A stretch of DNA of 32,000 bases from Propionibacterium ruminifibrarum (GTDB taxonomy: Bacteria; Actinomycetota; Actinomycetes; Propionibacteriales; Propionibacteriaceae), in assembly GCF_900289195.1 (NCBI RefSeq), contig NZ_OMOH01000001.1, forward strand, positions 268,706-300,705, in the 5' to 3' direction. Positions within the stretch are counted from its first letter, which is position 1. Every line of letters begins with the position of its first letter. Both the position numbers and the translations under genes were made by a program. Under the pieces are notes generated by a model that was given only the letters and a program-made list of their open reading frames with translations, made no database searches and was not told the DNA's origin. This document shows, piece after piece, positions 5,899 to 23,103 of this stretch.

Positions 5899-6107
5899 TG
5901 GGGGAAAATAACGGCTCCCATCCAGGGCCCTCAAGGCCAGGCTCGCCCCGCACCGGTCGCACCAGCACGCAGGAATGGTCCTCGACAAGGAGCATCACGA
6001 AGAGAGGAGGCCATCATCCGCTGACCTTCTCTCTCGTACCGCTGGCAGAGATCATCAGGAATTACCTAGGGTGGAAACAATCCAACTCGTTTCCGGTGGG
6101 AGCACCC

Positions 6108-7136
6108 ATGAGCAGCAGCCGACCCTTCGACACGGAACTCCCCCTCGTCGCCGCGCCCATGGCGGGCGGCCCCTCCACGACGGCACTGGTCCAGGCAGTG
6201 GCCGGGGCAGGCGGCCTGGGTTTCCTCGCGGCGGGCTACAAGACGCCCGAGCGAATGGCTGAGGAGCTGGACACCGCCAGGGGCTGGGGCGTGCCCTTCG
6301 GGGTCAATCTCTTCGTCCCGAACGACCAGCCCTATGACGAGCAGGCCCTGAACGCGTACGCCGCCGAGCTGGCCGACGAGGCGGCGGCACTGGGCGCCGA
6401 GGTCCGTTTCGCGCCCGGTGCCGACGACGACCACTGGGCCGACAAGATCGCCCTCCTGCTGGATGCCCCCGTCCCGGCCGTCTCGTTCAGTTTCGCGCTG
6501 CCGGACCGCTCCCTCATCGCCGAACTCAAGGGCAGGGGCACCGTCGTGCTGCAGACCGTCACGACCCTGGACGAGGCCAGGGCGGCGCTCGACGCCGGTG
6601 TGGATGCCCTGGTGGTGCAGGGGCCCCGGGCCGGCGGGCACTCGGCGACCTGGACGCCCACCCGGGCGATCGAGGACTTCCCCACCGCACGGATCGTGGC
6701 CCGGATCCGGGCACTGACGAGCGTGCCGATCATCGGCACGGGTGGGGTCGACGGCCCCGGGACGGTGCGCGAGATCATGGCCGCCGGCGCCGACGGCGTC
6801 GCGATCGGCACCCTGCTCGTGCGGGCGGAGGAGTCGGGCGCCTCACCGGTCTACCAGGACGCCCTCGTCAGCGGCGAGTTCACGCGGACGACGATCACCA
6901 GGGCCTTCACCGGAAGACCTGCGCGCGGACTGCACAACGGCTTCATCGAGCGTCACGGCGAGCACGCGCCCACCGCCTACCCGGCCGTCCACCGGATGAC
7001 GAGCCCGATGCGAACCAGGGCGTGGATCACCGGCGACACCGATCGCCTCTCACTGTGGGCCGGCACCGGCTTCGCGAGCGCCCAGGCGGCGCCGACGGCG
7101 CAGATCCTGCACGGTCTCGCATCGCAGCTGCCCTGA
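6108..7136 (+). CDS. nitronate monooxygenase / 2-nitropropane dioxygenase family FMN enzyme (FabK-like)
   Basis: PLVAAPMAGGPSTTALVQAVAGAGGLGFLAAGY and VVQGPRAGGH...IIGTGGV are typical of the NMO TIM-barrel family. ATG 6108 is preceded by GGTGGGAG, so it is preferred over GTG 6096. Confidence 0.8.
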   Translation: MSSSRPFDTELPLVAAPMAGGPSTTALVQAVAGAGGLGFLAAGYKTPERMAEELDTARGWGVPFGVNLFVPNDQPYDEQALNAYAAELADEAAALGAEVRFAPGADDDHWADKIALLLDAPVPAVSFSFALPDRSLIAELKGRGTVVLQTVTTLDEARAALDAGVDALVVQGPRAGGHSATWTPTRAIEDFPTARIVARIRALTSVPIIGTGGVDGPGTVREIMAAGADGVAIGTLLVRAEESGASPVYQDALVSGEFTRTTITRAFTGRPARGLHNGFIERHGEHAPTAYPAVHRMTSPMRTRAWITGDTDRLSLWAGTGFASAQAAPTAQILHGLASQLP

Positions 7137-12870: not shown

Positions 12871-13644
12871 TCACCGGTCCTGGTCGAGGGTGCGCGACAG
12901 CAGGGGGCCGATCAGGTCCATGGGCAGAGGGAAGACGACCGTCGAGTTCTGGTCGGCACCGAGCTCGAGCAGCGTCTGCAGGTACCGCAGTTGCAGGGAG
13001 GCGGGGCTGGCCGAGAGCACGTCGGCGGCCTGCCTCAGTTCGCCGGACGCCTGGAGCTCGCCGCGGGCGTTGATCACCTTGGCGCGACGCTCACGCTCGG
13101 CCTCGGCCTCGCGGGCCATCGCCCGCTGCATGGCCTCGGGAATCTCCACGTCCTTGATCTCGACCACGGACACGTCGACGCCCCAGGAGGAGGTCTGCAC
13201 CTCGATGATCTCGCGCAGATCGCGATTGAGCCCCTCGCGATGGGCCAGCAGGGTGTCGAGGTCGGCGCGCCCGAGCACGGTGCGCAGCGTGGTCTGGGCG
13301 ATCTGGCTGGTCGCCACCGCGTAGTTCTCCACGTTCATCACCGCGTTCATCGGATCGGTGACATTGAACAGGACGACGGCGTTGACCCGGGCCGGAACGT
13401 TGTCGCGGGTGATGATCTCCTGCGGCGGGATCGTCAGGGTCACCGTCCTCGTGTCGACCCGGACGATCCTGTCCAGGCCGGGGACGATGAGGGCCAGGCC
13501 CGCCCCGTGCAGCGGCCTCACCTTGCCGAGGCGGAAGATGACGGCCCGCTCGTACTCGGGGATGATCTTCAGGCAGGTGACCAGGAGGCCGGCCACGAGA
13601 ATGACGAGTGCGATGAGGGTGAAGAACCACTGAGTACTGCCCAC
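12871..13644 (-). CDS. SPFH/band-7 (stomatin-like, slipin) membrane protein
   Basis: N-terminal TM helix, then IIPEYERAVIFRLGK...TRDNV...EIKDVEIP...AMAREAEAERERRAKV, a canonical stomatin/PHB domain. GTG 13644 is preceded by AGGAG embedded in the 3' end of the upstream gene. Confidence 0.9.
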   Translation of the reverse strand: MGSTQWFFTLIALVILVAGLLVTCLKIIPEYERAVIFRLGKVRPLHGAGLALIVPGLDRIVRVDTRTVTLTIPPQEIITRDNVPARVNAVVLFNVTDPMNAVMNVENYAVATSQIAQTTLRTVLGRADLDTLLAHREGLNRDLREIIEVQTSSWGVDVSVVEIKDVEIPEAMQRAMAREAEAERERRAKVINARGELQASGELRQAADVLSASPASLQLRYLQTLLELGADQNSTVVFPLPMDLIGPLLSRTLDQDR

Positions 13645-13646
13645 GG

Positions 13647-14399
13647 TCAGCTCCTGTCGGTGTCGTCAAGGGTCGAGTGATAACGGGTGCGTCCGCTCGA
13701 CCATGCGGGTGCGTAGCGTTCGATGAGGCGCGTGGCCTCATCGGCGGCGCGGTCCGTCTGAGCCTGTCCGTGCACGCCGTGAGTCCTGACCCGCTGAGCC
13801 GTGGTCCGTTTCCCCGTCCCGGTGGTCATGACCGGGCCGGCATCATCGTCGGGGACGGAGGACTCGAGGGGCAGGTCCTCGGGCGCGTTGACCGGTGTGG
13901 TGCGCAGCGAGCGGATCATCGGCCAGGCGGCCACGACGACGAAGGCGACGGCCGCGCCGAGCGCGATGCGCTGAGCGAGCCCGTTCGCCACGGCCTGCAT
14001 GGCCGCCGGGAGCGCTGCACCGGCGGCCATGATCGCAAGGCTCATGCCCCGGTGGAACACCCCCGCCTCGGAGTGCGGCCAGGGATCGACCGGCTGGGTG
14101 ATCTCACGCGGACCCAGCCGTGGCGCGCAGTCCCTCTTGACGGGGCAGCGCCCGCAGATCTCGTCCTGCCCCCGGTAGCGGATGACGCGTTTCTCCGGGT
14201 CGAAGCTGGCGGGCCACAGCCACTGGTCCTGGTGGCACTTCCACGCGCCGTGGTCCTCGTGGAAGACGAAGGTACTGGTCCGCCACTCCCGGGACCGCTG
14301 GTTGCTGCGCCGCCCCAGCACGTCCAGCCCCCAGGCGAAGGCGACGAGGACGACCGCGTAGAGGCAGGACAGGTAGACCTGGGCGCCCATCTCGTCCAT
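13647..14399 (-). CDS. 3-TM membrane protein with a WhiB-like Cys motif (C-X26-C-X2-C-X5-C; CGRCPVKRDC)
   Basis: These are the last 250 codons of the 802-aa ORF 13647..16055. The ATG 14399 lies 2 nt after the norB stop codon (14402-14404). High GC3, hydrophobic helices at residues ~7-27, ~118-137 and ~144-165. The Cys codons were checked directly in the DNA (TGC at 14156-14154, 14147-14145 and 14129-14127). Confidence 0.7.
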   Translation of the reverse strand: MDEMGAQVYLSCLYAVVLVAFAWGLDVLGRRSNQRSREWRTSTFVFHEDHGAWKCHQDQWLWPASFDPEKRVIRYRGQDEICGRCPVKRDCAPRLGPREITQPVDPWPHSEAGVFHRGMSLAIMAAGAALPAAMQAVANGLAQRIALGAAVAFVVVAAWPMIRSLRTTPVNAPEDLPLESSVPDDDAGPVMTTGTGKRTTAQRVRTHGVHGQAQTDRAADEATRLIERYAPAWSSGRTRYHSTLDDTDRS

Positions 14400-14401
14400 G
14401 G

Positions 14402-16756
14402 TCAGTCCACGCTCGCGATCGGGGCGTACCCGTGTCCGTCCGAGCCCACCTCGACGAACAGCCGTTCGACGGGCAGTTCGTCCACGGTGCGCCCCTCGTG
14501 ACGGTGGATCCAGCCGCGGACCGCCATGACGAGGAAGGGCAGGACACCGCCGAGGATGAAGACGAGGTCGCCCGGCATCCGCAGCCATTCGAGTACGACG
14601 TTCTTGTGCTCGGTGATGTAGTTGAGCGATCTCGCCTCGAAGTATCCGGCGCCGACCGAACGGTACAGCTGGAGCGCCCCCAGCGGCAGCAGGGTGACGA
14701 AGACCATCCAGGCGAGCCCGATGTTGGAGCACCAGAAGGAGACCTTGGCGAGCCTGTCGTCCCACTTGTCCTGCGGGATGAGGTAGCGCAGGGCGAACAT
14801 CGCCAGGCCCATCGCCATCATGCCGTAGACGCCCATCATGGAGCCGTGCGCGTGGTTGGCCGTCAGTGCCGTGCCGATCTCGTAGTAGGAGACGATGGGC
14901 AGGTTGATGAGGAAGCCGAACAGACCCGCACCGACGAAGTTCCAGAAACCCACGGCCACGAGGAACATGACGCACCAGCGGTGCGGGAACGGGGTGCTCG
15001 ACCTGGCCTCTCGTCTGGCACCCAACTGCATGAACGCCCAGGCCTCGACGGTCAGGAAGGTCAGCGGGATGACCTCGGCGGCCGAGAAGACCGCACCGAC
15101 CGCCATGTTCGAGCTCGGGGTGCCGGAGAAGTAGACGTGGTGCATGGTGCCGAGTACGCCGCCGACGGAGTAGAGGATGACGTCCATGTAGATGATTCCC
15201 AGGGCGACCTTCTCGCGCACCACGCCGAGCATGACGAAGATGTACGCGACCATGACGGTGGTGAACAGTTCGAGGAAGTCCTCGACCCACAGGTGGACCA
15301 CCCAGAAGCGCCAGTACTCGGCCACCGAGATCTGTGTCGTCGTACCGGCGAGCATGCCGACCGCGTAGAAGGCGGGGATGGACAGGGCGGAGAAGAAGAA
15401 CACCCAGGGCAGATTGCCGTGCGATTCGGCGCGCAGCCTGCCCCGGATGGCTCGGACGATGATGAACACCCAGAGGAACATGCCGAGCGTCAGCGCGGCC
15501 TGGAAGACCTTGGGCAGGTCCAGGTACTCCCACTGCTGGCCGAGGAGCGGCCCGCTGGCCCATGAGACCCCGTAGATCGACAGCATCTCGCCCGCGAGCG
15601 AGCCGAACACGACGAAGCAGACGGCACAGAACAGCACACCGACCCATCTGCTCTGGCCCCTGGGTTCCCTGCCCGAGATGAAGGGGGCGAGGAAGATGCC
15701 CCCGGCCAGGAAGGAGGCCGCCGTCCACAGCAGGGCGAGTTGGACGTGCCAGGTGCGCGCCAGGTTGTAGGGGAACCAGCTGGCCAGGTCGAAACCGAAG
15801 AAGCTCGTGATGTCGGCCCTGTAGTGCTCGGCCGCCGCACCCACGATGGTCTGCAGCAGGAACAGCGCCGATATCGCCACCCAGAACCAGGCCGTGACAC
15901 GCTGGGACCTGGTGAGCCCCACCCTGGACGGCGGGATGAAGGAGATCGACGGGGCGTCCGAGGCGTGCCAGCCGATCCTGGCGCTCCACCGTCCGTAAAT
16001 GGCGAACATCACGCCGATACCCCCGAGGAGCACGAGCAGGGACAGCGCCGACCACAGCACCATGTCGGCCGTGGGCTCGTTGGCAACGTTGCTCTCGGCC
16101 GGCCAGTTGTTCGTGTAGGAGTAGTCCTGCCCCGGTCGTTGGGCCGCCGCGCCCCAGGCGGTCCAGGCGAAGAAGCTCACCAGCTGGTGGATCTGCTCAG
16201 GATCGGTGATGTCGTCGGCGAGCAGGCCGAGATCGTGCGAGTCCTGCCCGAAGTAGCCGGCGTAGTAGCCGGTGAGCTCCCGGTAGGCGTCCGTCTGGTG
16301 CTCGGAGAACCGGAGCACCCCGCTGTCCTCGTCGTAACGGTTCGTGCGCCAGTCCGTGATGGTGGCGGCCGACGGGTCTGCGACGCCCTCGTCCCGGTAC
16401 GCCTGCAGCGTGCGGTCACTGGCCCGGCGCAGGTAGTCCGCGGTGAAGTCGGGTCCGAGGTAGCCGCCGTGGCCCAGCACCGATCCGTACTGCATCAGAC
16501 CGCGGTTCTGGAACAGTTCCTGGCCCGCGGCGATGTCGTCCCCGGTGAACAGCACCTCCCCGGATTGGTCGGTGACCTTGTCGGGAACGGGAATCGAGTC
16601 GGTGTAGGTGCGCCAGGCGAGGATGCCCATGACCGTGAATCCGAAGAGCATCACCAGGATGACGCCCTGGACCCACCCCCTGCTCACCACCATGGTACGG
16701 CGGGAGCAGCCGGGGCCGGCGATGGTGCTGTGCTGCGAGTCCGTCATGGGCGTCAT
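14402..16756 (-). CDS. norB: nitric-oxide reductase, quinol-dependent large subunit (qNOR)
   Basis: About 780-aa polytopic heme-copper-oxidase-like protein. The N-terminal region ...GQELFQNRGLMQYGSVLGHGGYLGPDFTADYLRRA is characteristic of single-subunit qNOR. The start is ambiguous between ATG 16756, 16747 and 16774. Codons upstream of 16756 are AT-rich and rare (ATA ATT ATC), so 16774 and 16945 are unlikely. Confidence 0.88.
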   Translation of the reverse strand: MTPMTDSQHSTIAGPGCSRRTMVVSRGWVQGVILVMLFGFTVMGILAWRTYTDSIPVPDKVTDQSGEVLFTGDDIAAGQELFQNRGLMQYGSVLGHGGYLGPDFTADYLRRASDRTLQAYRDEGVADPSAATITDWRTNRYDEDSGVLRFSEHQTDAYRELTGYYAGYFGQDSHDLGLLADDITDPEQIHQLVSFFAWTAWGAAAQRPGQDYSYTNNWPAESNVANEPTADMVLWSALSLLVLLGGIGVMFAIYGRWSARIGWHASDAPSISFIPPSRVGLTRSQRVTAWFWVAISALFLLQTIVGAAAEHYRADITSFFGFDLASWFPYNLARTWHVQLALLWTAASFLAGGIFLAPFISGREPRGQSRWVGVLFCAVCFVVFGSLAGEMLSIYGVSWASGPLLGQQWEYLDLPKVFQAALTLGMFLWVFIIVRAIRGRLRAESHGNLPWVFFFSALSIPAFYAVGMLAGTTTQISVAEYWRFWVVHLWVEDFLELFTTVMVAYIFVMLGVVREKVALGIIYMDVILYSVGGVLGTMHHVYFSGTPSSNMAVGAVFSAAEVIPLTFLTVEAWAFMQLGARREARSSTPFPHRWCVMFLVAVGFWNFVGAGLFGFLINLPIVSYYEIGTALTANHAHGSMMGVYGMMAMGLAMFALRYLIPQDKWDDRLAKVSFWCSNIGLAWMVFVTLLPLGALQLYRSVGAGYFEARSLNYITEHKNVVLEWLRMPGDLVFILGGVLPFLVMAVRGWIHRHEGRTVDELPVERLFVEVGSDGHGYAPIASVD

Positions 16757-16830
16757 GATAATTATCAGGAGCATCCCGGGTTTATTTTTGGACGGATTTA
16801 ATCCATTATCAGCCTTGTTTATTACTCTGG
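16755..16830 (-). promoter_or_regulatory. AT-rich norB promoter/operator island with palindromes
   Basis: About 64 percent A+T by hand count over ~74 nt, within a strongly GC-rich window. Elements: TGATAATTATCA (16756-16767), GGATT-T-AATCC (16794-16804), two CTGATAAT copies 44 bp apart (16768-16761 and 16812-16805, minus strand), and TATCAT (16760-16755) 7 nt before ATG 16747. Confidence 0.55.
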
Positions 16831-16906: not shown

Positions 16907-18184
16907 GTGCCGCACATCGCTCTCGACTACGAAATCGTCGAACACGACCTGGACAACGGGTTACGCGTCATCGTCAACCACGACCCCGGTGCACCGGCCG
17001 AGGCGGTGAACCTCTGGTACGCCGTCGGCTCGGGCGACGAGACCCTGGGCGTGACCGGTTTCGCCCACCTGTTCGAGCACCTCATGTTCGCCGGGTCGGC
17101 GCACGTGGCGGCCAGTGAGCACCTGGCCCTCATGGAGTCGGCCGGGGGAAGCGCCAACGCGACGACCAGCTTCGACCGCACGAACTACTTCGAGACGGTT
17201 CCACCGGGCGCCCTCGAGCTGGCGCTGTGGCTCGAGGCGGACCGCATGAGCACGCTGGCGGTGAACCAGGCCAACTTCGACACCCAGGTCGAAGTGGTCA
17301 AGGAGGAGAAACGCCAGCGCTACGACAACGTTCCCTACGGCGATCAGCTCGAACTGCTGCTGAAACTGAATTTCCCACCCGAGCACCCGTACGGCCACCC
17401 CACGATCGGGTCGATGAGCGACCTGGACGCCGCTTCACTGTCGGACGTGCAGGGCTTCTACCGGCGCTGGTACCACCCCGGGGGCGCCGTCCTGACCCTG
17501 TCGGGTCCGGTCGGGGCCGACAAGGCGGTCGGGCTGGTCGAGAAGTACTTCGCGGACATACCGGCCGCGCCCGCCCAGGACGCTCGCCCCTTCGCGCCCC
17601 TGCCCCGGCACGAGGACGTCCCCACGATCCAGGTGCGACGTGCCGTGCCCAGCACGATGGTGCACCTGTGCTGGCGCAGCCCGGACTTCAACTCTCCCCA
17701 GCGTTACGCCGTCGAGCAGGCGCTCGCGGTGCTGGCGTCCGGCCAGTCCAGCCGGCTGCCGAGCCTGCTGGTCCGTGACCGCGAGATCGCCGACGCCGTC
17801 GGCTCCGGTGATTTCGGTCTCGCCCGCGGCGTCTCGATGGCCTCGCTCAGCGCCAGGGTGCGCTCGGGTCACAGCCCCCAGGAACTCTGCGAGGCGATCC
17901 TCGAGCAACTCGTCCGGCTGGCGGAGCAGGGTCCTGATGAGGCGGAACTGGCCCGGGTCAATGCCGGTTTCGACCGTGAATGGCTCACCCGGTTGGCCAG
18001 CGTCGACTCCCGCGCCGACGAGATCAGCGGCTTCGCCAGCCTGTCCGGCGACCCGCACATGGTCAACAGCCTGCTGACCCGCATGCACGCGGTCACAGCC
18101 GATCAGATAGCCGAGGCCGCCGGTACCTGGCTGGCCCCGGAGCACCGAGCGGTGCTCATCTATGAAGCCGAGGATGCCCGATGA
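16907..18184 (+). CDS. M16 family zinc peptidase (active subunit, HxxEH)
   Basis: FAHLFEHLMFAGS (inverted zinc motif HxxEH) and a downstream E for zinc binding; 425 aa. GTG 16907 lies 6 nt after TAGAAT (16895-16900), a leaderless-type start. Confidence 0.88.
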   Translation: MPHIALDYEIVEHDLDNGLRVIVNHDPGAPAEAVNLWYAVGSGDETLGVTGFAHLFEHLMFAGSAHVAASEHLALMESAGGSANATTSFDRTNYFETVPPGALELALWLEADRMSTLAVNQANFDTQVEVVKEEKRQRYDNVPYGDQLELLLKLNFPPEHPYGHPTIGSMSDLDAASLSDVQGFYRRWYHPGGAVLTLSGPVGADKAVGLVEKYFADIPAAPAQDARPFAPLPRHEDVPTIQVRRAVPSTMVHLCWRSPDFNSPQRYAVEQALAVLASGQSSRLPSLLVRDREIADAVGSGDFGLARGVSMASLSARVRSGHSPQELCEAILEQLVRLAEQGPDEAELARVNAGFDREWLTRLASVDSRADEISGFASLSGDPHMVNSLLTRMHAVTADQIAEAAGTWLAPEHRAVLIYEAEDAR

Positions 18185-19542
18185 GTTCTGAGATCCTGCG
18201 CCCCCCTGTCGACCCGACCAGCACGTGGCGATTCCCCCTGCCCAGGGTCATCGACCTCGACAACGGCATGTGCATCTGGGCCTACGACCTGCCCGGTCAG
18301 TACGTCATCACCGCCGAGATCGTCTTCGACGTCGCGCTGACCGACGAACCCGCCGGCAAGGAGGGTGTCGCTCATCTGGCTGCCCGGTGCTGCGACGAGG
18401 GCTCGGTCGACCATCCCGGTGAGGCCCTCGCCCGACGCATCGAGGACATCGGTGCGGTCTTCGACAGTTCGGCCGGGTCCTGGGACACCCGCTGCGGCAT
18501 CGACGTCGCGGCCCCCTATGCGCTGGCCGGCATCGACCTGCTCGACGAGATCGTCCGCACCCCCGCCTACGCCGACTCCGACGTGGCCCGCCACAAGGCA
18601 CTGCGCCTCACCGAGATCGAGCAGCAACGGGCGAACTCGGCGGCCATGGCCACGATCGGCCTGGCCCAGAAGAGCTGGGTCACCGGTAGCCGTCAGCAGT
18701 TGCCCGCTGCGGGCACGTCGACCACCGTGCCGACGATCACGGCTGAGGACGTACGCGCCTTTCACGACCGCTGGTGGCGCGCCGATGGCGCCACGCTGAT
18801 CCTTGCCGGCGCCCTGCCCGACGGACTCGTCGAGCACGCGGCCGAGATCTTCGGGGCCTGGCCCGCAACCGGCGTACGCAGCGGCGCGCAGCCCCCGATC
18901 CCGGCAGAGGGCCCCTGCCCCACCTACGTCATCGACCGCCCCGAAGCGGTCGCCGCCGACATGCGCGTCGGCCTCATCGTGCCGGGGCGCGAGTGGGAGA
19001 ACTGGGCGCCGATGCAGGTCGCGACGAGCGCCGTCGGCGGACTGTTCGGCAGCCGGCTCAACATGGAGCTGCGGGAGAAGCACGGCTTCACCTACGGCGT
19101 GCAGGCCGGGTTGGCCGCGAGCAGGTTCAACGGCAGTTTCTCCATTCAGGCGAGTTTCCGCACCGAGGTGGCGGCGAGGGCGTTCCGCGGCGTCTTCGAG
19201 CTGCTCGACCTGTCGCGCCGGCCGCTGGAGAAGTCGGAGGCCGACGACGCGGTGCGCTTCATGGTGGGCATCGCGCCGCTGCGCTACGACACCGCCGATG
19301 CGATCGCCGCACAGGCGAGCGTCCTGGCCTCGCACCGGGTCGACGTCAACTGGGTCAACGAGCTGAACGAGAGGCTCGCCGCGACGAACGCCAACCAGGC
19401 CACGGCGGCCTTCGAGGCGACCGTCGGCAAGGCCACCCAGGAGGGCATGATGCGTGCCGTGCTGTGCGGCGACGCCTCCAGGCTCGTGCCCGACCTGCGC
19501 AGCTACGGCTTCCAGGTCGAGGTCATCGACCCCGTGCTGTGA
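18181..19542 (+). CDS. M16 family peptidase-like protein (non-catalytic partner)
   Basis: Same fold and length class (453 aa). The equivalent position reads VAHLAARCCDEGS (HLAAR rather than HxxEH). ATGA overlap with the upstream M16 gene at 18181-18184. Confidence 0.85.
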   Translation: MSSEILRPPVDPTSTWRFPLPRVIDLDNGMCIWAYDLPGQYVITAEIVFDVALTDEPAGKEGVAHLAARCCDEGSVDHPGEALARRIEDIGAVFDSSAGSWDTRCGIDVAAPYALAGIDLLDEIVRTPAYADSDVARHKALRLTEIEQQRANSAAMATIGLAQKSWVTGSRQQLPAAGTSTTVPTITAEDVRAFHDRWWRADGATLILAGALPDGLVEHAAEIFGAWPATGVRSGAQPPIPAEGPCPTYVIDRPEAVAADMRVGLIVPGREWENWAPMQVATSAVGGLFGSRLNMELREKHGFTYGVQAGLAASRFNGSFSIQASFRTEVAARAFRGVFELLDLSRRPLEKSEADDAVRFMVGIAPLRYDTADAIAAQASVLASHRVDVNWVNELNERLAATNANQATAAFEATVGKATQEGMMRAVLCGDASRLVPDLRSYGFQVEVIDPVL

Positions 19543-19618: not shown

Positions 19619-22537
19619 TCAGCCGTTGAGCCGCCGGTAGGCCTCCTGGGCCTTGGACTGGGCGGTCTCGATCTGGGTCTGGTACTCCCCCAGGTCGCCG
19701 TTCTTGAGGGCCTCGTCCGCCTTGGTGAAGGCGTCGTTCGCCTCCTGCAGCAGCTGTTTGGCGGCCTCCTCGTTCGTCAGCTGCTCGGTGGAACCCGAGT
19801 CGCCGGAGGACTGCTGGTCCACGTCCTCACCGGTGCTCGCGCCGGCGTCACCGGCGAAGACCGAGTCGAGGGCCTCCTGCAGGGTGTCGCCGATACCGAT
19901 GTGCGTGCCGAACCGGACGACGACGAAGCGCAACACCGGGTAAGTGCCGGCCGAGGAACCCGATGCCGCCGACTTGCGCTGGGTGTAGATCGGTTCGACG
20001 TAGATCAGGCCATTGCCCAGCGGCAGTGTCAGCAGATTGCCGTAGAGCGCGTCGGCCGAGCTGTCCGAGCCCTGGCCGATGAACGGCAGCAGCTTGTCGG
20101 CCACCTGCTGGTCGGAGACGATCGCGTTGTAGGTCTGGTTCGGCCCCGGCACCTGAGCCGTGTCGGAGAGTTTCAGGACCCGGATCTTGCCGTAGTCCGG
20201 ACTCGACGCGTCGGCCACGACCGACATGTACGCGGCCATGTTCTCGCGGTTCTTCGGCACGTAGACGGCCGTCTGGCTGAACATCGGGGACTCGTCGCCG
20301 GGCCACTTGATCGACAGGTAGTAGGGCGGTTCGTAGGCGCCGCTGGAGTCTCGCGGATCCGCCGGGACCACCCACAGATCCGACTGGTTGTACCAGCTGT
20401 CGGGGTTCTCCATGTGGTAGCGGCCGAGAACCTGGCGCTGAACCTTGAACAGGTCCTGCGGATAGCGCAGATGACTCATCAGGTCCTCGGAGATGTCGCC
20501 CCGGTCCTTCAGCAGGCCCGGGTAGACCTTCATCCAGGTCTGCAGGACCGGGTCGTCGGTGTCCCACGCATAGAGGTCGACGGTTCCGTCGAAGGCGTCC
20601 ACGACGGCCTTGACCGAGTTGCGCATGTAGTTGATCTGCGTGTCCTCGCCGGCGTTCTGGCGCGCCGAGTCCGAGATGGTCTCCTGCAGGTTGACGTGCT
20701 GCGCGTTCGGGTAGTCCGCGCTCGTGGTGTAGGCGTCGACGATCCACACGACGCGCCCGTCGACGACCGCCGGGTACGGGTCCTGGTCGACGGTCAGCCA
20801 TGGGGCGACCTCGCCGATGCGCTCACGGGGAGTGCGGTTGTACAGGATGCGTGAGGCCGAGTTCACGTTGCTCGACAGCAGCAGGTTCAGATCGGCGAAC
20901 TTGGTGGCGTACATGCCGCGCATCACGTAGTTGCCGATCGCCACGCCACCGGCCCCGGTGTAGGTGTAGTGCTGCTCGCCGCCGGATTCGGAGCCGCCGG
21001 GGGTGTCGAGCTCGATGGGTGTCGCACCCTCCACGTTGCCCGCGACGACCCACTGGCTCTCGGACTCGCCGTAGTAGATCCGGGACTCGTCGATGTCCAG
21101 TTCGCCCTCGGGAGGAATGTCGCCCTCGATCCACACGGGCTCACCGTTTGACGAGCTGCGGTTGCCGTAGGAGGCGACCACGCCGTACCCGTGGGTGTAG
21201 ACGGTGTGCGTGTTGATCCAGCTCTGGTCGGGCAGGCCCGCGATGTTGATCTCGCGGGCCGCGATGATCGTGTCCGTGGTGTCGCCATCGACGTCGTAGC
21301 GGTCGACGTCGAGCACGGAGGGGAACTGGTAGTAGCCGCGTACCTGTTGCAGCTGTTCGTAGGTCTCGCCGATCAACGCCGGATCCATGAGCCGGATGCC
21401 GGGAAGCGCCTCGGCGTCGGAGCGCAGCTGACCGGCGCTGACATTCGTCTCGGCGGAGTAGTCCGAGATCGTCACGTCCTCGATGTCATAGGCCGCCCTC
21501 GTCGCCTCGATCTGGCGTTCGATGTAGCTGCGCTCCTGGTTGACCTCGCTGGGGCGCACCGTGAACTGCTGGATCGCGACCGGGTAGACGCCCTGGATGA
21601 TGAGGCTGGAGACGATCATGAGGATGATCGCGGTGCCGGGCACACGCCACATCTTGAGCCGGACGTTGGCGAAGAACATGAGCGCGCAGATCCACGCGAT
21701 GATGGCGATGATGAGGCGGGCCGTGATGCGCGCATGGTCGTCGGTGTAGCCGATGCCGGTGAACAGGGCGTCGTTGTCGCTGACCGCGAACTCGTAGCGG
21801 GACAGCAGGCGCTGGAAGCCGTAGACGACCATGATGAGGCCGAGCATCACCGACAGGTGCACCTGGGCCGCCGCGCTGAACGGGTTCTTCAGCTCGACGG
21901 TCGGCGGATGGACGCCCTCCTCATCGGCGGTCTGCGGGCGCACCGCGACCGGGGAGGCGTACAGCGAGCCGGTGATGATGTGGACGACGGCCGCGGCAAG
22001 CGTCCCGATGATCAGGGCCGCCAGCAGGACCGAGACGATGTACCTCAGGAAGGGCAGGGTGAAGACGTAGAAGGAGACGTCCTTGCCGAAATACGCATCG
22101 GACTGGCCGAAGGGCGTGCGGTGGAGGAAGGCGAGGGTCTCGTCGATGTGGGTCACTGCCAGCGAGCCGCCCCCGAGCGCGATGACCAGTGAGGGTATGG
22201 CGATGATCACCGCCGTGCGCCTGGCCAGGGCCGCCCGGTAGTGGTCGAGGGTGGGCGAGTCGCTGATGGTGCGCTGGGGCCGTTTGCGCCAGGCGAGAGC
22301 CATGTTGAGCGCGCAGACACCGCCCAGCAGCAGGCCCTGACCGACGGCAAGGACCGCGCCCGTGACCAACCGAGTGGTGAAGACCTGACCGAAGTGCAGG
22401 TTGCGGAACCACATCCAGTCGGTGACGAACTCGCTGACGATCCACCACACGACGATGACCGCCACGAGGATGACGAGGGTCATGCCCAGTGCCGTGTGGT
22501 GACGCGGTGACTTCTTGGCCTGCGATGCGGTGCTCAT
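19619..22537 (-). CDS. UPF0182 family large polytopic membrane protein
   Basis: About 970 aa with N-terminal multi-TM region and a large extracytoplasmic domain, resembling the conserved actinobacterial UPF0182 family as I recall it (Rv3193c-like). ATG 22537 overlaps the upstream stop (ATGA), so it is preferred over 22558. Confidence 0.8.
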   Translation of the reverse strand: MSTASQAKKSPRHHTALGMTLVILVAVIVVWWIVSEFVTDWMWFRNLHFGQVFTTRLVTGAVLAVGQGLLLGGVCALNMALAWRKRPQRTISDSPTLDHYRAALARRTAVIIAIPSLVIALGGGSLAVTHIDETLAFLHRTPFGQSDAYFGKDVSFYVFTLPFLRYIVSVLLAALIIGTLAAAVVHIITGSLYASPVAVRPQTADEEGVHPPTVELKNPFSAAAQVHLSVMLGLIMVVYGFQRLLSRYEFAVSDNDALFTGIGYTDDHARITARLIIAIIAWICALMFFANVRLKMWRVPGTAIILMIVSSLIIQGVYPVAIQQFTVRPSEVNQERSYIERQIEATRAAYDIEDVTISDYSAETNVSAGQLRSDAEALPGIRLMDPALIGETYEQLQQVRGYYQFPSVLDVDRYDVDGDTTDTIIAAREINIAGLPDQSWINTHTVYTHGYGVVASYGNRSSSNGEPVWIEGDIPPEGELDIDESRIYYGESESQWVVAGNVEGATPIELDTPGGSESGGEQHYTYTGAGGVAIGNYVMRGMYATKFADLNLLLSSNVNSASRILYNRTPRERIGEVAPWLTVDQDPYPAVVDGRVVWIVDAYTTSADYPNAQHVNLQETISDSARQNAGEDTQINYMRNSVKAVVDAFDGTVDLYAWDTDDPVLQTWMKVYPGLLKDRGDISEDLMSHLRYPQDLFKVQRQVLGRYHMENPDSWYNQSDLWVVPADPRDSSGAYEPPYYLSIKWPGDESPMFSQTAVYVPKNRENMAAYMSVVADASSPDYGKIRVLKLSDTAQVPGPNQTYNAIVSDQQVADKLLPFIGQGSDSSADALYGNLLTLPLGNGLIYVEPIYTQRKSAASGSSAGTYPVLRFVVVRFGTHIGIGDTLQEALDSVFAGDAGASTGEDVDQQSSGDSGSTEQLTNEEAAKQLLQEANDAFTKADEALKNGDLGEYQTQIETAQSKAQEAYRRLNG

Positions 22538-23103
22538 GCCTGATCGGTGTCCTCCCACTCGAAGGTGCGCACGAGGGCGCTGGACAGGGCCGGTACGAGG
22601 TGGTCACCGGCCAGGAGTTCGTCTGGATGGCTGGCCAGCCTGGCCACGCCGTAGGTGGTGCCGTCACGCAGGGCGCCCATGACGACGCGGATGTCCTCGC
22701 GTGAGGGGTGCGAGGCCACGAAGTCGGCGGCCTCATCGGGATCGTCGGGGATCTCGGCCTCGTGGCCGGCGGGCAGGAAGGAGCGCTCGGTGCACACCGC
22801 ACAGCCCGTCACCGTTCCCGGCCAGGCGATGGCGGCCAGACCGGCCAGGACGTCCTGGCCGGGATGGAAGTCGTCCTGCTCGATCGAGGACAACTGGTCG
22901 GGCGCGCTCACCGTGAGCCGGCCTGCCAGGGAGGGCTCCGCCTCGAGAAGCCGGGCGGTCGGCGCCAACGCGAACAGCCGGGCCGGCTGGTCCCACCCGG
23001 AGGCCCCGACGTAGCGCTCGATCTCGATCAGGGCTGCCGCCAGGGGCTCCTGGGCCGGTGTCGGGCCGCCGGCCCCCGCATGGTCCTGGGACTCGGAACT
23101 CAT
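22534..23103 (-). CDS. conserved actinobacterial protein (PPA1309 family as I recall the NCBI name)
   Basis: 189 aa, high GC3. GGGGAGGAG lies upstream of ATG 23103 and the gene is translationally coupled to the UPF0182 gene. The family name is from memory; no catalytic motif is recognised. Confidence 0.65.
   Translation of the reverse strand: MSSESQDHAGAGGPTPAQEPLAAALIEIERYVGASGWDQPARLFALAPTARLLEAEPSLAGRLTVSAPDQLSSIEQDDFHPGQDVLAGLAAIAWPGTVTGCAVCTERSFLPAGHEAEIPDDPDEAADFVASHPSREDIRVVMGALRDGTTYGVARLASHPDELLAGDHLVPALSSALVRTFEWEDTDQA

What the first reader, a model, noticed from the sequence alone, without database searches (positions are those of the whole stretch)
13647..14399. Membrane-embedded WhiB-like Fe-S motif protein encoded between qNOR and a stomatin gene
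The 250-aa product has the following layout:
- One N-terminal TM helix (AQVYLSCLYAVVLVAFAWGLDVL) followed by RRSNQRSREWR. By the positive-inside rule, the next domain is cytosolic.
- Then ...HGAWKCHQDQWLWP...(26 residues)...EICGRCPVKRDC.
- Then two more TM helices and a charged ~85-aa tail.

The Cys spacing C55-X26-C82-X2-C85-X5-C91 and the literal C-x-R-C-P-V-x3-C string are the hallmark of WhiB-like (Wbl) [4Fe-4S] proteins. M. tuberculosis WhiB1, as I recall it, reads AVCRDEDPELFFP...VCNRCPVTTEC, which is C-X27-C-X2-C-X5-C. The aromatic-aromatic-Pro after the first Cys (WLWP versus FFP) is also mirrored.

Known Wbl proteins are small soluble sigma-factor partners whose clusters react avidly with NO. 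Here the motif sits inside a 3-TM protein. The gene starts 2 nt after the norB stop codon, and the stomatin start follows 2 nt after its own stop. I am not aware of a described membrane-tethered Wbl, nor of a Wbl-like accessory protein for qNOR. It could be an NO/redox sensor or an Fe-S accessory or assembly factor for the reductase.
Basis: partly seen in the sequence, partly recalled or inferred. Interest (0 to 1): 0.78.

Follow-up and report, generated by a model that had tools for sequence, protein, structure and literature searches.

The report
Conserved membrane partner of quinol NO reductase
The gene is real and nearly always sits directly behind one subtype of nitric oxide reductase in several bacterial phyla. 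Its four-cysteine domain is related to a module of IS1182 transposases, not to WhiB regulators, so an enzyme described as single-gene appears to have an undescribed dedicated partner.

Summary
Window 13647-14399 (minus strand) encodes a 250-aa protein with three membrane helices and a cytoplasmic C55-x26-C82-x2-C85-x5-C91 domain. It lies 2 nt after the qNOR stop and 2 nt before an SPFH/stomatin start.

The WhiB reading fails. Pfam Whib scores 14.5 bits against a 23.6-bit cut-off. The profile-profile match covers only the 18-column CxxCPxxxxC stretch (51%). There is no GVWGG motif. The predicted fold is beta-rich rather than a four-helix bundle, and Foldseek and PDB profile searches find no WhiB.

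The domain is instead homologous to the four-cysteine module inside IS1182-family transposases. hhalign gives 98.5% probability over 69 columns with all four Cys, and 60 of 60 family members hit NCBIfam IS1182.

The qNOR-accessory idea is strongly supported:
- All 83 actinobacterial loci have qNOR upstream and SPFH downstream.
- In a distant branch (Verrucomicrobiota, Terriglobia, soil metagenomes), 67 of 68 testable loci have qNOR directly upstream but no SPFH.
- The linked qNORs form a 54-59% identical subclade.

The literature describes qNOR as a one-gene enzyme. The function and the bound metal (Zn or [4Fe-4S]) remain unknown. Most likely this is a dedicated qNOR accessory or maturation subunit.

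The parts
14402..16774 (-). Quinol-dependent nitric oxide reductase (qNOR/NorZ). The longest ORF runs to 16945, but homologues align from about residue 60-80, so the start is probably near 16774.
   Evidence: Pfam NorB_cytochrome_c-like 3.2e-52 and COX1 2.4e-51. PDB qNORs of A. xylosoxidans, G. stearothermophilus and N. meningitidis score 5e-149 to 7e-143.
13647..14399 (-). Gene X: 250-aa, three-TM membrane protein with a cytoplasmic four-cysteine domain. This is the finding.
   Evidence: ORF and translation. 128 clusters at 90% identity and 270 at 50% identity are homologous. AlphaFold pLDDT is 83.6, and above 90 for most of residues 1-170.
14316..14381 (-). TM helix 1 (residues about 7-28), followed by RRSNQRSREWR.
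   Evidence: Hydropathy and charge count. AlphaFold helix 3-40.
14070..14285 (-). Cytoplasmic four-cysteine module (residues about 39-110), homologous to the Cys module of IS1182-family transposases. The ligand codons are C55 14235-14237, C82 14154-14156, C85 14145-14147 and C91 14127-14129.
   Evidence: NCBIfam IS1182 E 3.3e-4, residues 34-104 against profile 348-417, and 60 of 60 relatives hit. hhalign 98.5%, E 2.3e-15, 69 columns. The four Cys are invariant. Strands lie at 45-47, 52-54, 60-67, 72-77 and 99-103.
13902..14057 (-). TM helices 2 and 3 (residues about 115-135 and 141-166), preceded by the conserved DPWPHSEAG-FHRG interface motif. This is the part kept in Cys-less 'mini' variants.
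   Evidence: Hydropathy. AlphaFold helices 111-135 and 141-166. W107 and F115 are nearly invariant. The Streptomyces mini-X scores 44.6 bits on this part alone.
13650..13901 (-). Variable, charged C-terminal tail (residues 167-250), predicted cytoplasmic, with one low-confidence helix at 214-237.
   Evidence: Low pLDDT. Length and sequence vary among orthologues.
12871..13644 (-). SPFH/Band 7 (stomatin-like) protein, third gene of the actinobacterial cassette.
   Evidence: Pfam Band_7 1.2e-38. Present directly downstream in 83 of 83 actinobacterial loci, and in only 1 of 87 distant-branch loci.

Best explanation
Gene X encodes a dedicated membrane partner of a particular subclade of quinol-dependent nitric oxide reductase: an accessory subunit or maturation/stabilisation factor.

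Shown:
- It is a three-helix membrane protein (N-terminus out, C-terminus in).
- Its first cytoplasmic loop carries a compact, beta-rich, four-cysteine metal-binding module.
- That module shares ancestry with the Cys module embedded in IS1182-family transposases, not with WhiB.
- The gene is translationally coupled to qNOR (0-4 nt gaps or overlaps) and co-inherited with it in Actinomycetota, in at least Verrucomicrobiota and Terriglobia, and in many soil metagenome contigs.
- Actinomycetota have added an SPFH/stomatin gene to the cassette.

Inferred:
- X is made in step with qNOR and docks to it in the membrane through its TM bundle and the DPWPHSE-x-G-x-FHRG interface motif.
- This would place the metal-binding module at the cytoplasmic face of the enzyme, where qNOR's water channel to the active site opens.
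- There it would assist assembly or metallation, stabilise the enzyme, or tune its activity.
- The SPFH oligomer would then corral or protect this complex in a membrane microdomain, as stomatin cages do for other membrane proteins.

The bound metal is undetermined. A structural Zn and a [4Fe-4S] cluster are about equally plausible.
For: Synteny
- 83 of 83 actinobacterial loci spanning several families have qNOR immediately upstream and SPFH immediately downstream, while the outer flanking genes differ.
- In the distant branch, the five places read in four look-ups and 67 of 68 testable metagenome loci have qNOR directly upstream, often with a 4-nt overlap. The one exception is an IS insertion.
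- The linked qNORs are 54-59% identical across branches, against 38-43% to plasmid qNORs without X, so X marks a qNOR subclade.

Selection
- The four Cys and the x26 spacing are invariant in 169 of 170 loci, even though X itself is only about 25% identical between branches.

Structure
- The AlphaFold model is confident: pLDDT 83.6, three TM helices plus a beta-rich loop domain.

Domain ancestry
- NCBIfam IS1182: 60 of 60 relatives hit, best E 4.9e-13. Pfam DDE_Tnp_1_6: 51 of 60.
- tblastn of the domain against plasmids hits only IS1182 transposases.
- The domain HMM scores 36-55 bits on transposases against 8-11 bits on WhiBs.
- hhalign gives 98.5% and 97.8%.

Core versus module
- Cys-less 'mini-X' variants still follow qNOR. 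This suggests the membrane part is the core qNOR-linked element.

Context from papers
- qNOR is described as a one-gene cluster needing no chaperone, and active-site metal content in NORs is preparation- and host-dependent (PMC12067857).
- Stomatin cages enclose client membrane proteins (PMC12407830).
Against: - There is no direct evidence of physical interaction.
- The apparent qNOR-X and X-SPFH fusion proteins are probably assembly artefacts.
- Solved qNOR structures, including a native preparation, report no extra subunit. Those enzymes belong to clades without X.
- 196 plasmid records hold a qNOR homologue, yet neither X query found a full X on any plasmid; two of these loci were inspected, and one carries a Cys-less mini-X. 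X is therefore not generally required for qNOR function.
- Some lineages have lost the Cys module, so the module is dispensable at least there.
- No expression or mutant data were found.
Confidence: 0.7

Rival explanations
1. Membrane-tethered Wbl protein. The domain would be a WhiB-family [4Fe-4S] domain that reacts with NO, and it would signal to or regulate qNOR or transcription.
For: - The Cys spacing is nearly the same as in WhiB1: x26 against x27, then x2 and x5.
- There is local similarity over CxxCPxxxxC: Pfam Whib E 0.052 and hhalign 51% over 18 columns.
- The gene sits in an NO-related operon.
Against: - It is below the Pfam threshold, and only 8 of 60 relatives hit.
- There is no GVWGG motif and no C-terminal DNA-binding motif.
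- No WhiB appears in Foldseek or PDB profile searches, or by tblastn of WhiBs against all loci.
- The Pro after the third Cys is not conserved outside Actinomycetota.
- The whole 70-residue domain aligns to IS1182 transposases instead.
Confidence: 0.03
2. It works like an Fe-S NO/redox sensor without being a Wbl protein. The four Cys would hold a [4Fe-4S] cluster at the cytoplasmic face, and its nitrosylation or oxidation would switch qNOR activity, stability or SPFH association.
For: - C-Xn-C-X2-C-X5-C is a recurrent [4Fe-4S] signature in unrelated proteins: Wbl, AddB/Dna2 (PMC3439918) and, from my own knowledge, EndoIII/MutY.
- There are weak EndIII_4Fe-2S hits in 9 of 24 relatives.
- The location is cytoplasmic.
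- The operon deals with NO.
Against:
- The first ligand sits in a CPxG beta-knuckle of the kind common in zinc sites (my own knowledge).
- Cys-less variants exist.
- No transposase with this module is known to bind Fe-S (searches found none).
Confidence: 0.2
3. Iron (FeB) or haem metallochaperone for qNOR. The module would bind and hand over Fe(II) at the mouth of qNOR's cytoplasmic channel, doing the job that NorQD does for cNOR.
For: - Coupling to qNOR is strict.
- qNOR clusters lack NorQD, and active-site metal content in NORs is reported as preparation- and host-dependent (PMC12067857).
- The module is a metal-binding domain at the cytoplasmic face.
Against: - A fixed four-Cys site is an unusual carrier for labile Fe(II).
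- Most qNOR clades lack X.
- Cys-less variants exist.
- This is purely inferential.
Confidence: 0.12
4. X is primarily the membrane partner of the SPFH protein (an NfeD-like role), and it lies next to qNOR only because SPFH does.
For: - X occupies the upstream position that NfeD usually holds in SPFH operons (my own knowledge).
- X and SPFH are coupled by 2-4 nt.
- One relative weakly hits NfeD_membrane, E 3e-4.
Against: - In the distant branch X follows qNOR with no SPFH gene in 86 of 87 loci.
- There is no NfeD OB-fold or protease domain.
Confidence: 0.08
5. A decaying fragment of an IS1182 transposase with no cellular function.
For: The domain is homologous to IS1182 transposases. One UniRef name for a relative reads 'Transposase DDE domain-containing protein'.
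Against: - Only about 70 residues align.
- The protein has its own conserved TM helices, a fixed position behind qNOR in hundreds of genomes, and invariant Cys across phyla.
- Nothing beyond the ~70-residue Cys module aligns to the transposases, and no IS ends were looked for in the window.
Confidence: 0.01

Closest known systems
Cys-rich module of IS1182-family transposases (NCBIfam NF033551 positions about 348-417; N-terminal part of Pfam PF13751 DDE_Tnp_1_6)
   Same: Homologous over about 70 residues: F-x-Y-x3-D-x-[WY]-x-C-P-x-G-x2-L ... Y ... C-x2-C-x-K-x2-C-T ... G-R-x-I. All four Cys align.
   Different: X aligns to none of the rest of the transposase, which holds the catalytic domain. 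Its C1-C2 spacing is fixed at 26 residues, whereas the eight transposases examined range from 26 to 34. The module is inserted between TM helices of a membrane protein. The function of the module in transposases is itself uncharacterised.
WhiB-like (Wbl) [4Fe-4S] proteins, e.g. M. tuberculosis WhiB1 (PDB 5OAY)
   Same: Four Cys with nearly the same spacing, and a locally similar C-x-x-C-P-x4-C stretch. X is widespread in Actinomycetota and lies in an NO-related context.
   Different: There is no significant profile or fold similarity. X is beta-rich rather than a four-helix bundle, has no GVWGG motif and no DNA-binding tail, and is membrane-embedded. It is also found outside Actinomycetota.
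Accessory and assembly proteins of NO reductases: NorQ/NorD (FeB insertion), NorE/NorF, and NorH of Thermus cNOR
   Same: A small gene directly linked to the catalytic subunit gene. It is plausibly a non-catalytic subunit or maturation factor.
   Different: No sequence relationship was found (Pfam and NCBIfam found none). The known proteins serve cNOR, and qNOR is described as having none (PMC12067857).
SPFH/stomatin operons with an NfeD partner, and stomatin cages that enclose client membrane proteins
   Same: In Actinomycetota X is coupled to an SPFH gene and sits in the position of the usual membrane partner.
   Different: X has no NfeD domains. The X-qNOR pair exists without SPFH in other phyla.
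Fe-S 'iron staple' sites of AddB/Dna2 and the cluster loop of EndoIII/MutY
   Same: The same C-Xn-C-X2-C-X5-C ligand spacing.
   Different: No homology was detected. Metal content of X is untested.

Membership tests
WhiB-like (Wbl) proteins, Pfam PF02467 | Four conserved Cys, C-Xn-C-X2-C-X5-C | tested here: met
   C55-x26-C82-x2-C85-x5-C91, invariant in relatives. WhiB1 is C9-x27-C37-x2-C40-x5-C46. The pattern is not unique to Wbl proteins.
WhiB-like (Wbl) proteins, Pfam PF02467 | Score at or above the Pfam gathering threshold for the Whib profile | tested here: not met
   14.5 bits against a 23.6-bit cut-off, E 0.052, residues 64-92 only. Only 8 of 60 relatives hit, best E 0.024. hhalign against a WhiB alignment gives 51% over 18 columns.
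WhiB-like (Wbl) proteins, Pfam PF02467 | G[V/I]WGG turn after the cluster-binding region (PMC5741622) | tested here: not met
   There is no WGG anywhere in the 250-aa sequence. The corresponding region reads APRLGPREITQPVDPWPHSEAG.
WhiB-like (Wbl) proteins, Pfam PF02467 | Four-helix-bundle fold held by the cluster | tested here: not met
   AlphaFold predicts strands 45-47, 52-54, 60-67, 72-77 and 99-103, with only two 4-5-residue helices. Foldseek against the PDB finds no WhiB, with best E 0.6-0.7 to unrelated folds.
WhiB-like (Wbl) proteins, Pfam PF02467 | Small soluble protein with a C-terminal DNA-binding motif that partners with sigma factor A | tested here: not met
   X has three TM helices and a variable tail with no conserved basic motif. 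Sigma-factor binding cannot be tested here.
WhiB-like (Wbl) proteins, Pfam PF02467 | Binds an NO-reactive [4Fe-4S] cluster | not testable with these tools
   This needs anaerobic purification and spectroscopy.
IS1182-family transposase (NCBIfam NF033551 / Pfam PF13751) | Homology of the four-cysteine module | tested here: met
   hhalign 98.5%, E 2.3e-15, 69 columns. 60 of 60 relatives hit NF033551, best E 4.9e-13. 51 of 60 hit PF13751.
IS1182-family transposase (NCBIfam NF033551 / Pfam PF13751) | Full-length match including the DDE catalytic domain (NCBIfam cut-off 270 bits) | tested here: not met
   19.7 bits, and only profile positions 348-417 of 488 are matched. hhalign of the full-length family aligns only residues 40-114. 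X shares a module but is not a transposase.
NfeD (usual SPFH operon partner) | NfeD OB-fold C-terminal domain and/or ClpP-like protease domain | tested here: not met
   No NfeD domain appears in Pfam scans of 60 relatives, apart from one weak NfeD_membrane hit at E 3e-4.
Known NOR accessory proteins (NorQ, NorD, NorE, NorF) | Sequence similarity to any of these families | tested here: not met
   No such family appears in Pfam or NCBIfam scans at E up to 10.
qNOR (for the upstream gene) | N-terminal cytochrome c-like domain fused to a COX1-type catalytic subunit, with similarity to solved qNORs | tested here: met
   Pfam NorB_cytochrome_c-like plus COX1. PDB qNORs score 5e-149, with HLWVE and HHxYF motifs present in the alignment. 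Quinol use and NO reduction were not tested.

The most novel reading that the evidence does not exclude
A whole subclade of quinol-dependent NO reductases is not a single-subunit enzyme. This subclade is found in skin and oral actinobacteria (Cutibacterium, Actinomyces), in Mycolicibacter, Gordonia and Corynebacterium, and in abundant soil Verrucomicrobiota and Acidobacteriota. Under this reading it works with an obligate, previously unrecognised membrane subunit whose cytoplasmic domain was recruited from an IS1182 transposase and holds an NO- or redox-reactive [4Fe-4S] cluster, or delivers the FeB iron. This would give qNOR a built-in sensor or metallation device. It would also imply that IS1182 transposases are themselves Fe-S or metal-regulated enzymes.
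Probability: 0.2. Interest if true: 0.85.

Novelty: new variant of a known kind. Interest (0 to 1): 0.68.

Why it matters
qNOR detoxifies host NO in pathogens and commensals and is a source of N2O in soils. It is treated as a one-gene, one-subunit enzyme that needs no helper (PMC12067857).

A partner gene that is translationally coupled to qNOR, co-inherited across phyla and marks a distinct qNOR subclade would mean two things. First, the studied enzymes (Neisseria, Alcaligenes, Geobacillus) do not represent all qNORs. Second, heterologous expression of this clade without X may give incomplete or mis-metallated enzyme.

The finding also offers a clear case of a transposase-derived (or transposase-shared) metal-binding module serving in a respiratory membrane complex. 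It points to an untested metal site in a large IS family. In Actinomycetota it gives a concrete candidate client (qNOR plus X) for a bacterial SPFH/stomatin scaffold.

Tried and rejected
- **WhiB homology.** Tested with the Pfam profile, hhalign against a 24-sequence WhiB alignment, PDB sequence-profile searches, Foldseek on the full-length and domain-only models, and tblastn of three PDB WhiBs against all loci. All were negative or limited to the CxxCPxxxxC stretch.
- **Structure search.** Neither the full model nor the domain model has a significant PDB match. The domain-only model is of moderate quality (pLDDT 68), so the absence of matches is weak evidence on its own.
- **Gene fusions as 'Rosetta stone' evidence.** Several predicted proteins join the qNOR C-terminus to X, or X to SPFH. 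The two I could inspect lie on a 3x-coverage contig with a truncated SPFH gene, or next to a split SPFH gene. A qNOR-X fusion would also conflict with the predicted N-out topology of X. I rejected these as probable artefacts.
- **C-terminal tail motif.** I looked for a motif (RY..RW.S) that might correlate with SPFH. It occurs in only 22 of 79 actinobacterial orthologues, so I dropped it.
- **Phage_holin_2 (PF23778).** Similarity to the TM2-TM3 hairpin is sub-threshold (26.7 against 32 bits). I treated it as unresolved rather than as evidence for a holin.
- **Alignments for locus searches.** A2 and A3 were too diverse for the search for related loci. A1 and A7 worked.
- **Literature.** Searches for qNOR with stomatin/SPFH, for genes downstream of norB, and for IS1182 with zinc or Fe-S found nothing describing this protein or the module's metal.
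- **Promoter and terminator scan.** It found nothing inside the three-gene block. The scan uses a sigma-70 consensus and is uninformative in this high-GC genome.
Full report
**1. The observation**

The finding lies on the minus strand.

- Cysteines lie at residues 12, 55, 82, 85 and 91. This gives C55-x26-C82-x2-C85-x5-C91 and the string ICGRCPVKRDC.
- Three hydrophobic segments lie at about 7-28, 115-135 and 141-166.
- The 17 residues after the first segment hold five Arg/Lys, and the six before it hold none. The topology N-out, Cys-domain-in, C-in is therefore the likely one.
- The upstream gene is a bona fide qNOR: Pfam NorB_cytochrome_c-like 3e-52 and COX1 2e-51, with 5e-149 to the solved qNORs.
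- The downstream gene is an SPFH/Band 7 protein at 1e-38.

**2. It is a real, conserved family**

The protein has 128 relatives among 90%-identity clusters and 270 among 50%-identity representatives. All are unnamed or 'hypothetical'. The four Cys are invariant in 24 close relatives and in 60 sequences down to about 25% identity. Other conserved positions include F44, W53, Y75, K88, R98, W107 and F115. In 169 of 170 genomic and metagenomic loci the motif is present with exactly 26 residues between the first two Cys.

**3. It is not WhiB-like**

- *Profile.* The Pfam Whib profile gives 14.5 bits (cut-off 23.6, E 0.052) over residues 64-92 only. Among 60 relatives only 8 hit at all, best E 0.024.
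- *Profile-profile.* Comparison of the domain with a 24-sequence WhiB alignment matches 18 columns around CxxCPxxxxC at 51% probability.
- *PDB sequences.* Profile searches of PDB sequences, which hold nine distinct WhiB chains, return nothing at E up to 10.
- *tblastn.* Three WhiBs searched against all loci find nothing.
- *Fold.* AlphaFold gives a confident full-length model (pLDDT 83.6). Its loop domain has strands 45-47, 52-54, 60-67, 72-77 and 99-103 and only two very short helices. The domain modelled alone has the same layout. [quoted passage not shown] X has none of these.
- *Foldseek.* Neither model finds a WhiB structure or any significant match.
- *The 'hallmark' Pro.* The Pro after the third Cys is actinobacterial only. 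In the distant branch that residue is His in 75 of 86 loci.

**4. What the domain is related to**

NCBIfam gave an unexpected hit. Residues 34-104 match positions 348-417 of the IS1182-family transposase model at E 3.3e-4. Across the family this becomes decisive.

- 60 of 60 relatives match IS1182 (best E 4.9e-13), and 51 of 60 match Pfam DDE_Tnp_1_6.
- A tblastn of one relative's domain against 72,556 plasmids hits 37 records. Every annotated feature among the 25 listed is a transposase, mostly IS1182-family.
- An HMM of the X domain scores eight such transposases at 36-55 bits over 60-75 positions including all four Cys. WhiB1, WhiB and WhiB3 score 8-11 bits.
- hhalign gives 98.5% probability (E 2.3e-15, 69 columns) for the window's branch and 97.8% for the distant branch.
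- The shared pattern is F-x-Y-x3-D-x-[WY]-x-C-P-x-G-x2-L ... Y ... C-x2-C-x-K-x2-C-T ... G-R-x-I.
- Only this module is shared. X lacks the rest of the transposase, which holds the catalytic domain, and the TM helices have no counterpart.

I found no paper on what this module does in transposases.

**5. Genomic context**

A scan of one genome per species found 280 loci encoding relatives, and the best 79 were fetched. Together with four loci from earlier look-ups, all 83 have qNOR immediately upstream and SPFH immediately downstream. They span Propionibacterium, Acidipropionibacterium, Cutibacterium, Intrasporangium and other Dermatophilaceae, Actinomyces, Mycolicibacter/Mycobacterium, Gordonia, Corynebacterium propinquum and Nocardioidaceae. 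The outer flanks differ between genera, so the three genes travel as a cassette.

A profile of the distant members found 617 more proteins, a few of them named as Verrucomicrobiota or Terriglobia MAGs.

- The five places read in four look-ups, and 67 of 68 metagenome loci with enough upstream sequence, have qNOR directly upstream, often overlapping by 4 nt.
- Only 1 of 87 has an SPFH gene.
- The single exception carries an IS1595-like insertion between a truncated qNOR and X.

The ancient, cross-phylum unit is therefore qNOR plus X. SPFH is an actinobacterial addition.

The window's qNOR is 54-59% identical to the X-linked qNORs of the distant branch. It is only 38-43% identical to plasmid qNORs without X. 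X therefore marks a distinct qNOR subclade.

X is not universal. 196 plasmid records carry a qNOR homologue, yet neither X query found a full X on any plasmid; I inspected two of these loci. The Methylosinus OB3b plasmid qNOR has no X downstream. A Streptomyces plasmid qNOR, 55% identical, is followed with a 4-nt overlap by a 129-aa 'mini-X'. This keeps TM1, the DWPHSEA-RFHH motif, TM2 and TM3 (44.6 bits to the family HMM) but lacks the Cys module. A metagenomic relative, P0208, shows a similar internal deletion. I infer that the membrane part is the core qNOR-linked element and the Cys module an accessory to it.

**6. Mechanism**

*Shown:* architecture, topology prediction, domain ancestry, strict coupling to a qNOR subclade, and purifying selection on the four Cys.

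*Inferred:* X is produced with qNOR and binds it in the membrane. The metal-binding module then lies at the cytoplasmic face, where qNOR's hydrophilic channel to the active site opens. The literature proposes that channel as a proton route and possibly as an iron-insertion route (PMC12067857).

I consider a role as accessory subunit or maturation/stabilisation factor most likely (0.7). Sub-hypotheses are an Fe-S based NO/redox switch (0.2) and an FeB metallochaperone (0.12).

The metal cannot be decided here. The C-Xn-C-X2-C-X5-C spacing is used by [4Fe-4S] sites in unrelated proteins such as Wbl and AddB/Dna2. The first ligand, however, sits in a CPxG knuckle after a beta strand, as in many zinc sites (my own knowledge).

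In Actinomycetota the SPFH protein probably encloses or stabilises the qNOR-X unit. This is by analogy with stomatin cages around client membrane proteins (PMC12407830, PMC12344292; listed) and is inference only.

**7. Comparison with what is known, and novelty**

[quoted passage not shown] A broad survey of NOR diversity does not mention accessory genes for qNOR (PMC11214002). A native qNOR cryo-EM paper reports no extra subunit, but it concerns a clade without X. Searches joining NO reductase with stomatin/SPFH found nothing relevant.

X has no Pfam or NCBIfam family of its own. I class it as a new variant of a known kind, namely dedicated accessory proteins of heme-copper-type NO reductases, built from an unexpected part.

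**8. Caveats**

- No interaction, expression or metal data exist.
- The domain-only model is of moderate confidence.
- The eight transposases used for the alignments were chosen through similarity to X. The independent NCBIfam and Pfam models, however, give the same answer.
- Taxonomic assignment of the distant branch rests on a few named MAG proteins.

Noticed in passing
L181 4909-5298 (Streptomyces sp. NBC_00271 plasmid NZ_CP108071.1): A 129-aa 'mini-X' overlaps the stop of a qNOR (55% identical to the window's) by 4 nt. It keeps TM1, the DWPHSEA-RFHH motif and TM2-TM3 but lacks the whole four-cysteine module. The pair is flanked by ISL3 and IS110 transposases and has no SPFH gene.
   Followed up: partly
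P0208 (132 aa, metagenomic relative): This relative has a clean internal deletion of the Cys module (…GFSYQPDSD|LGREITQSLDPWPHSE…). It is a second apparent loss of the module.
   Followed up: no
L127 270-2110: This is the only distant-branch locus without an adjacent qNOR. An IS1595-like transposase ORF (312-1181) and another ORF are inserted between a truncated qNOR 3' end and X.
   Followed up: partly
P0162, P0180, P0219, P0225, P0263 (qNOR C-terminus + X) and P0155, P0169 (X + SPFH); loci L099, L100: These predicted proteins read through from qNOR into X, or from X into SPFH. The two contigs inspected look error-prone: one has 3x coverage and a truncated SPFH gene, the other has a split SPFH gene. 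The fusions are probably artefacts, but real fusions in some lineages are not excluded.
   Followed up: partly
window 13902-14080 (residues about 106-167 of X); P0017, P0039: The WPHSE-FHRG motif plus the TM2-TM3 hairpin gives sub-threshold matches to Pfam PF23778 'Putative phage holin family 2' (26.7 bits, cut-off 32; 12 of 60 relatives). This could be remote homology or shared TM composition. It is unresolved.
   Followed up: partly
window 13647-16055, minus strand: The reading frame of X stays open for 802 codons upstream, running out of frame through most of the qNOR gene. Long stop-free overlapping ORFs on both strands are common across this high-GC window and are not genes.
   Followed up: yes
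L092 1878-2468 and L093 1881-2492; L096 7051-7689: In the Verrucomicrobiota-type loci a hemerythrin-domain gene lies divergently upstream of qNOR-X. In another locus a Crp/Fnr-type regulator lies nearby. These are candidate NO-related accessory or regulatory genes of the distant branch.
   Followed up: no
window 16907-19542 (+), 19619-22558 (-), 6096-7136 (+): A pair of M16 peptidase-like genes lies divergently upstream of qNOR, with starts that would overlap the longest qNOR ORF. The window also holds a UPF0182 membrane protein and, about 7 kb away, a nitronate monooxygenase. I saw no evidence that any of these belongs to the cassette.
   Followed up: no
IS1182 transposases L084-L091 (e.g. 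L090 residues 330-406): The four-cysteine module of IS1182 transposases has the C-Xn-C-X2-C-X5-C spacing typical of [4Fe-4S] sites in DNA-processing enzymes. No paper on its metal content was found. The metal in this large IS family appears untested.
   Followed up: partly
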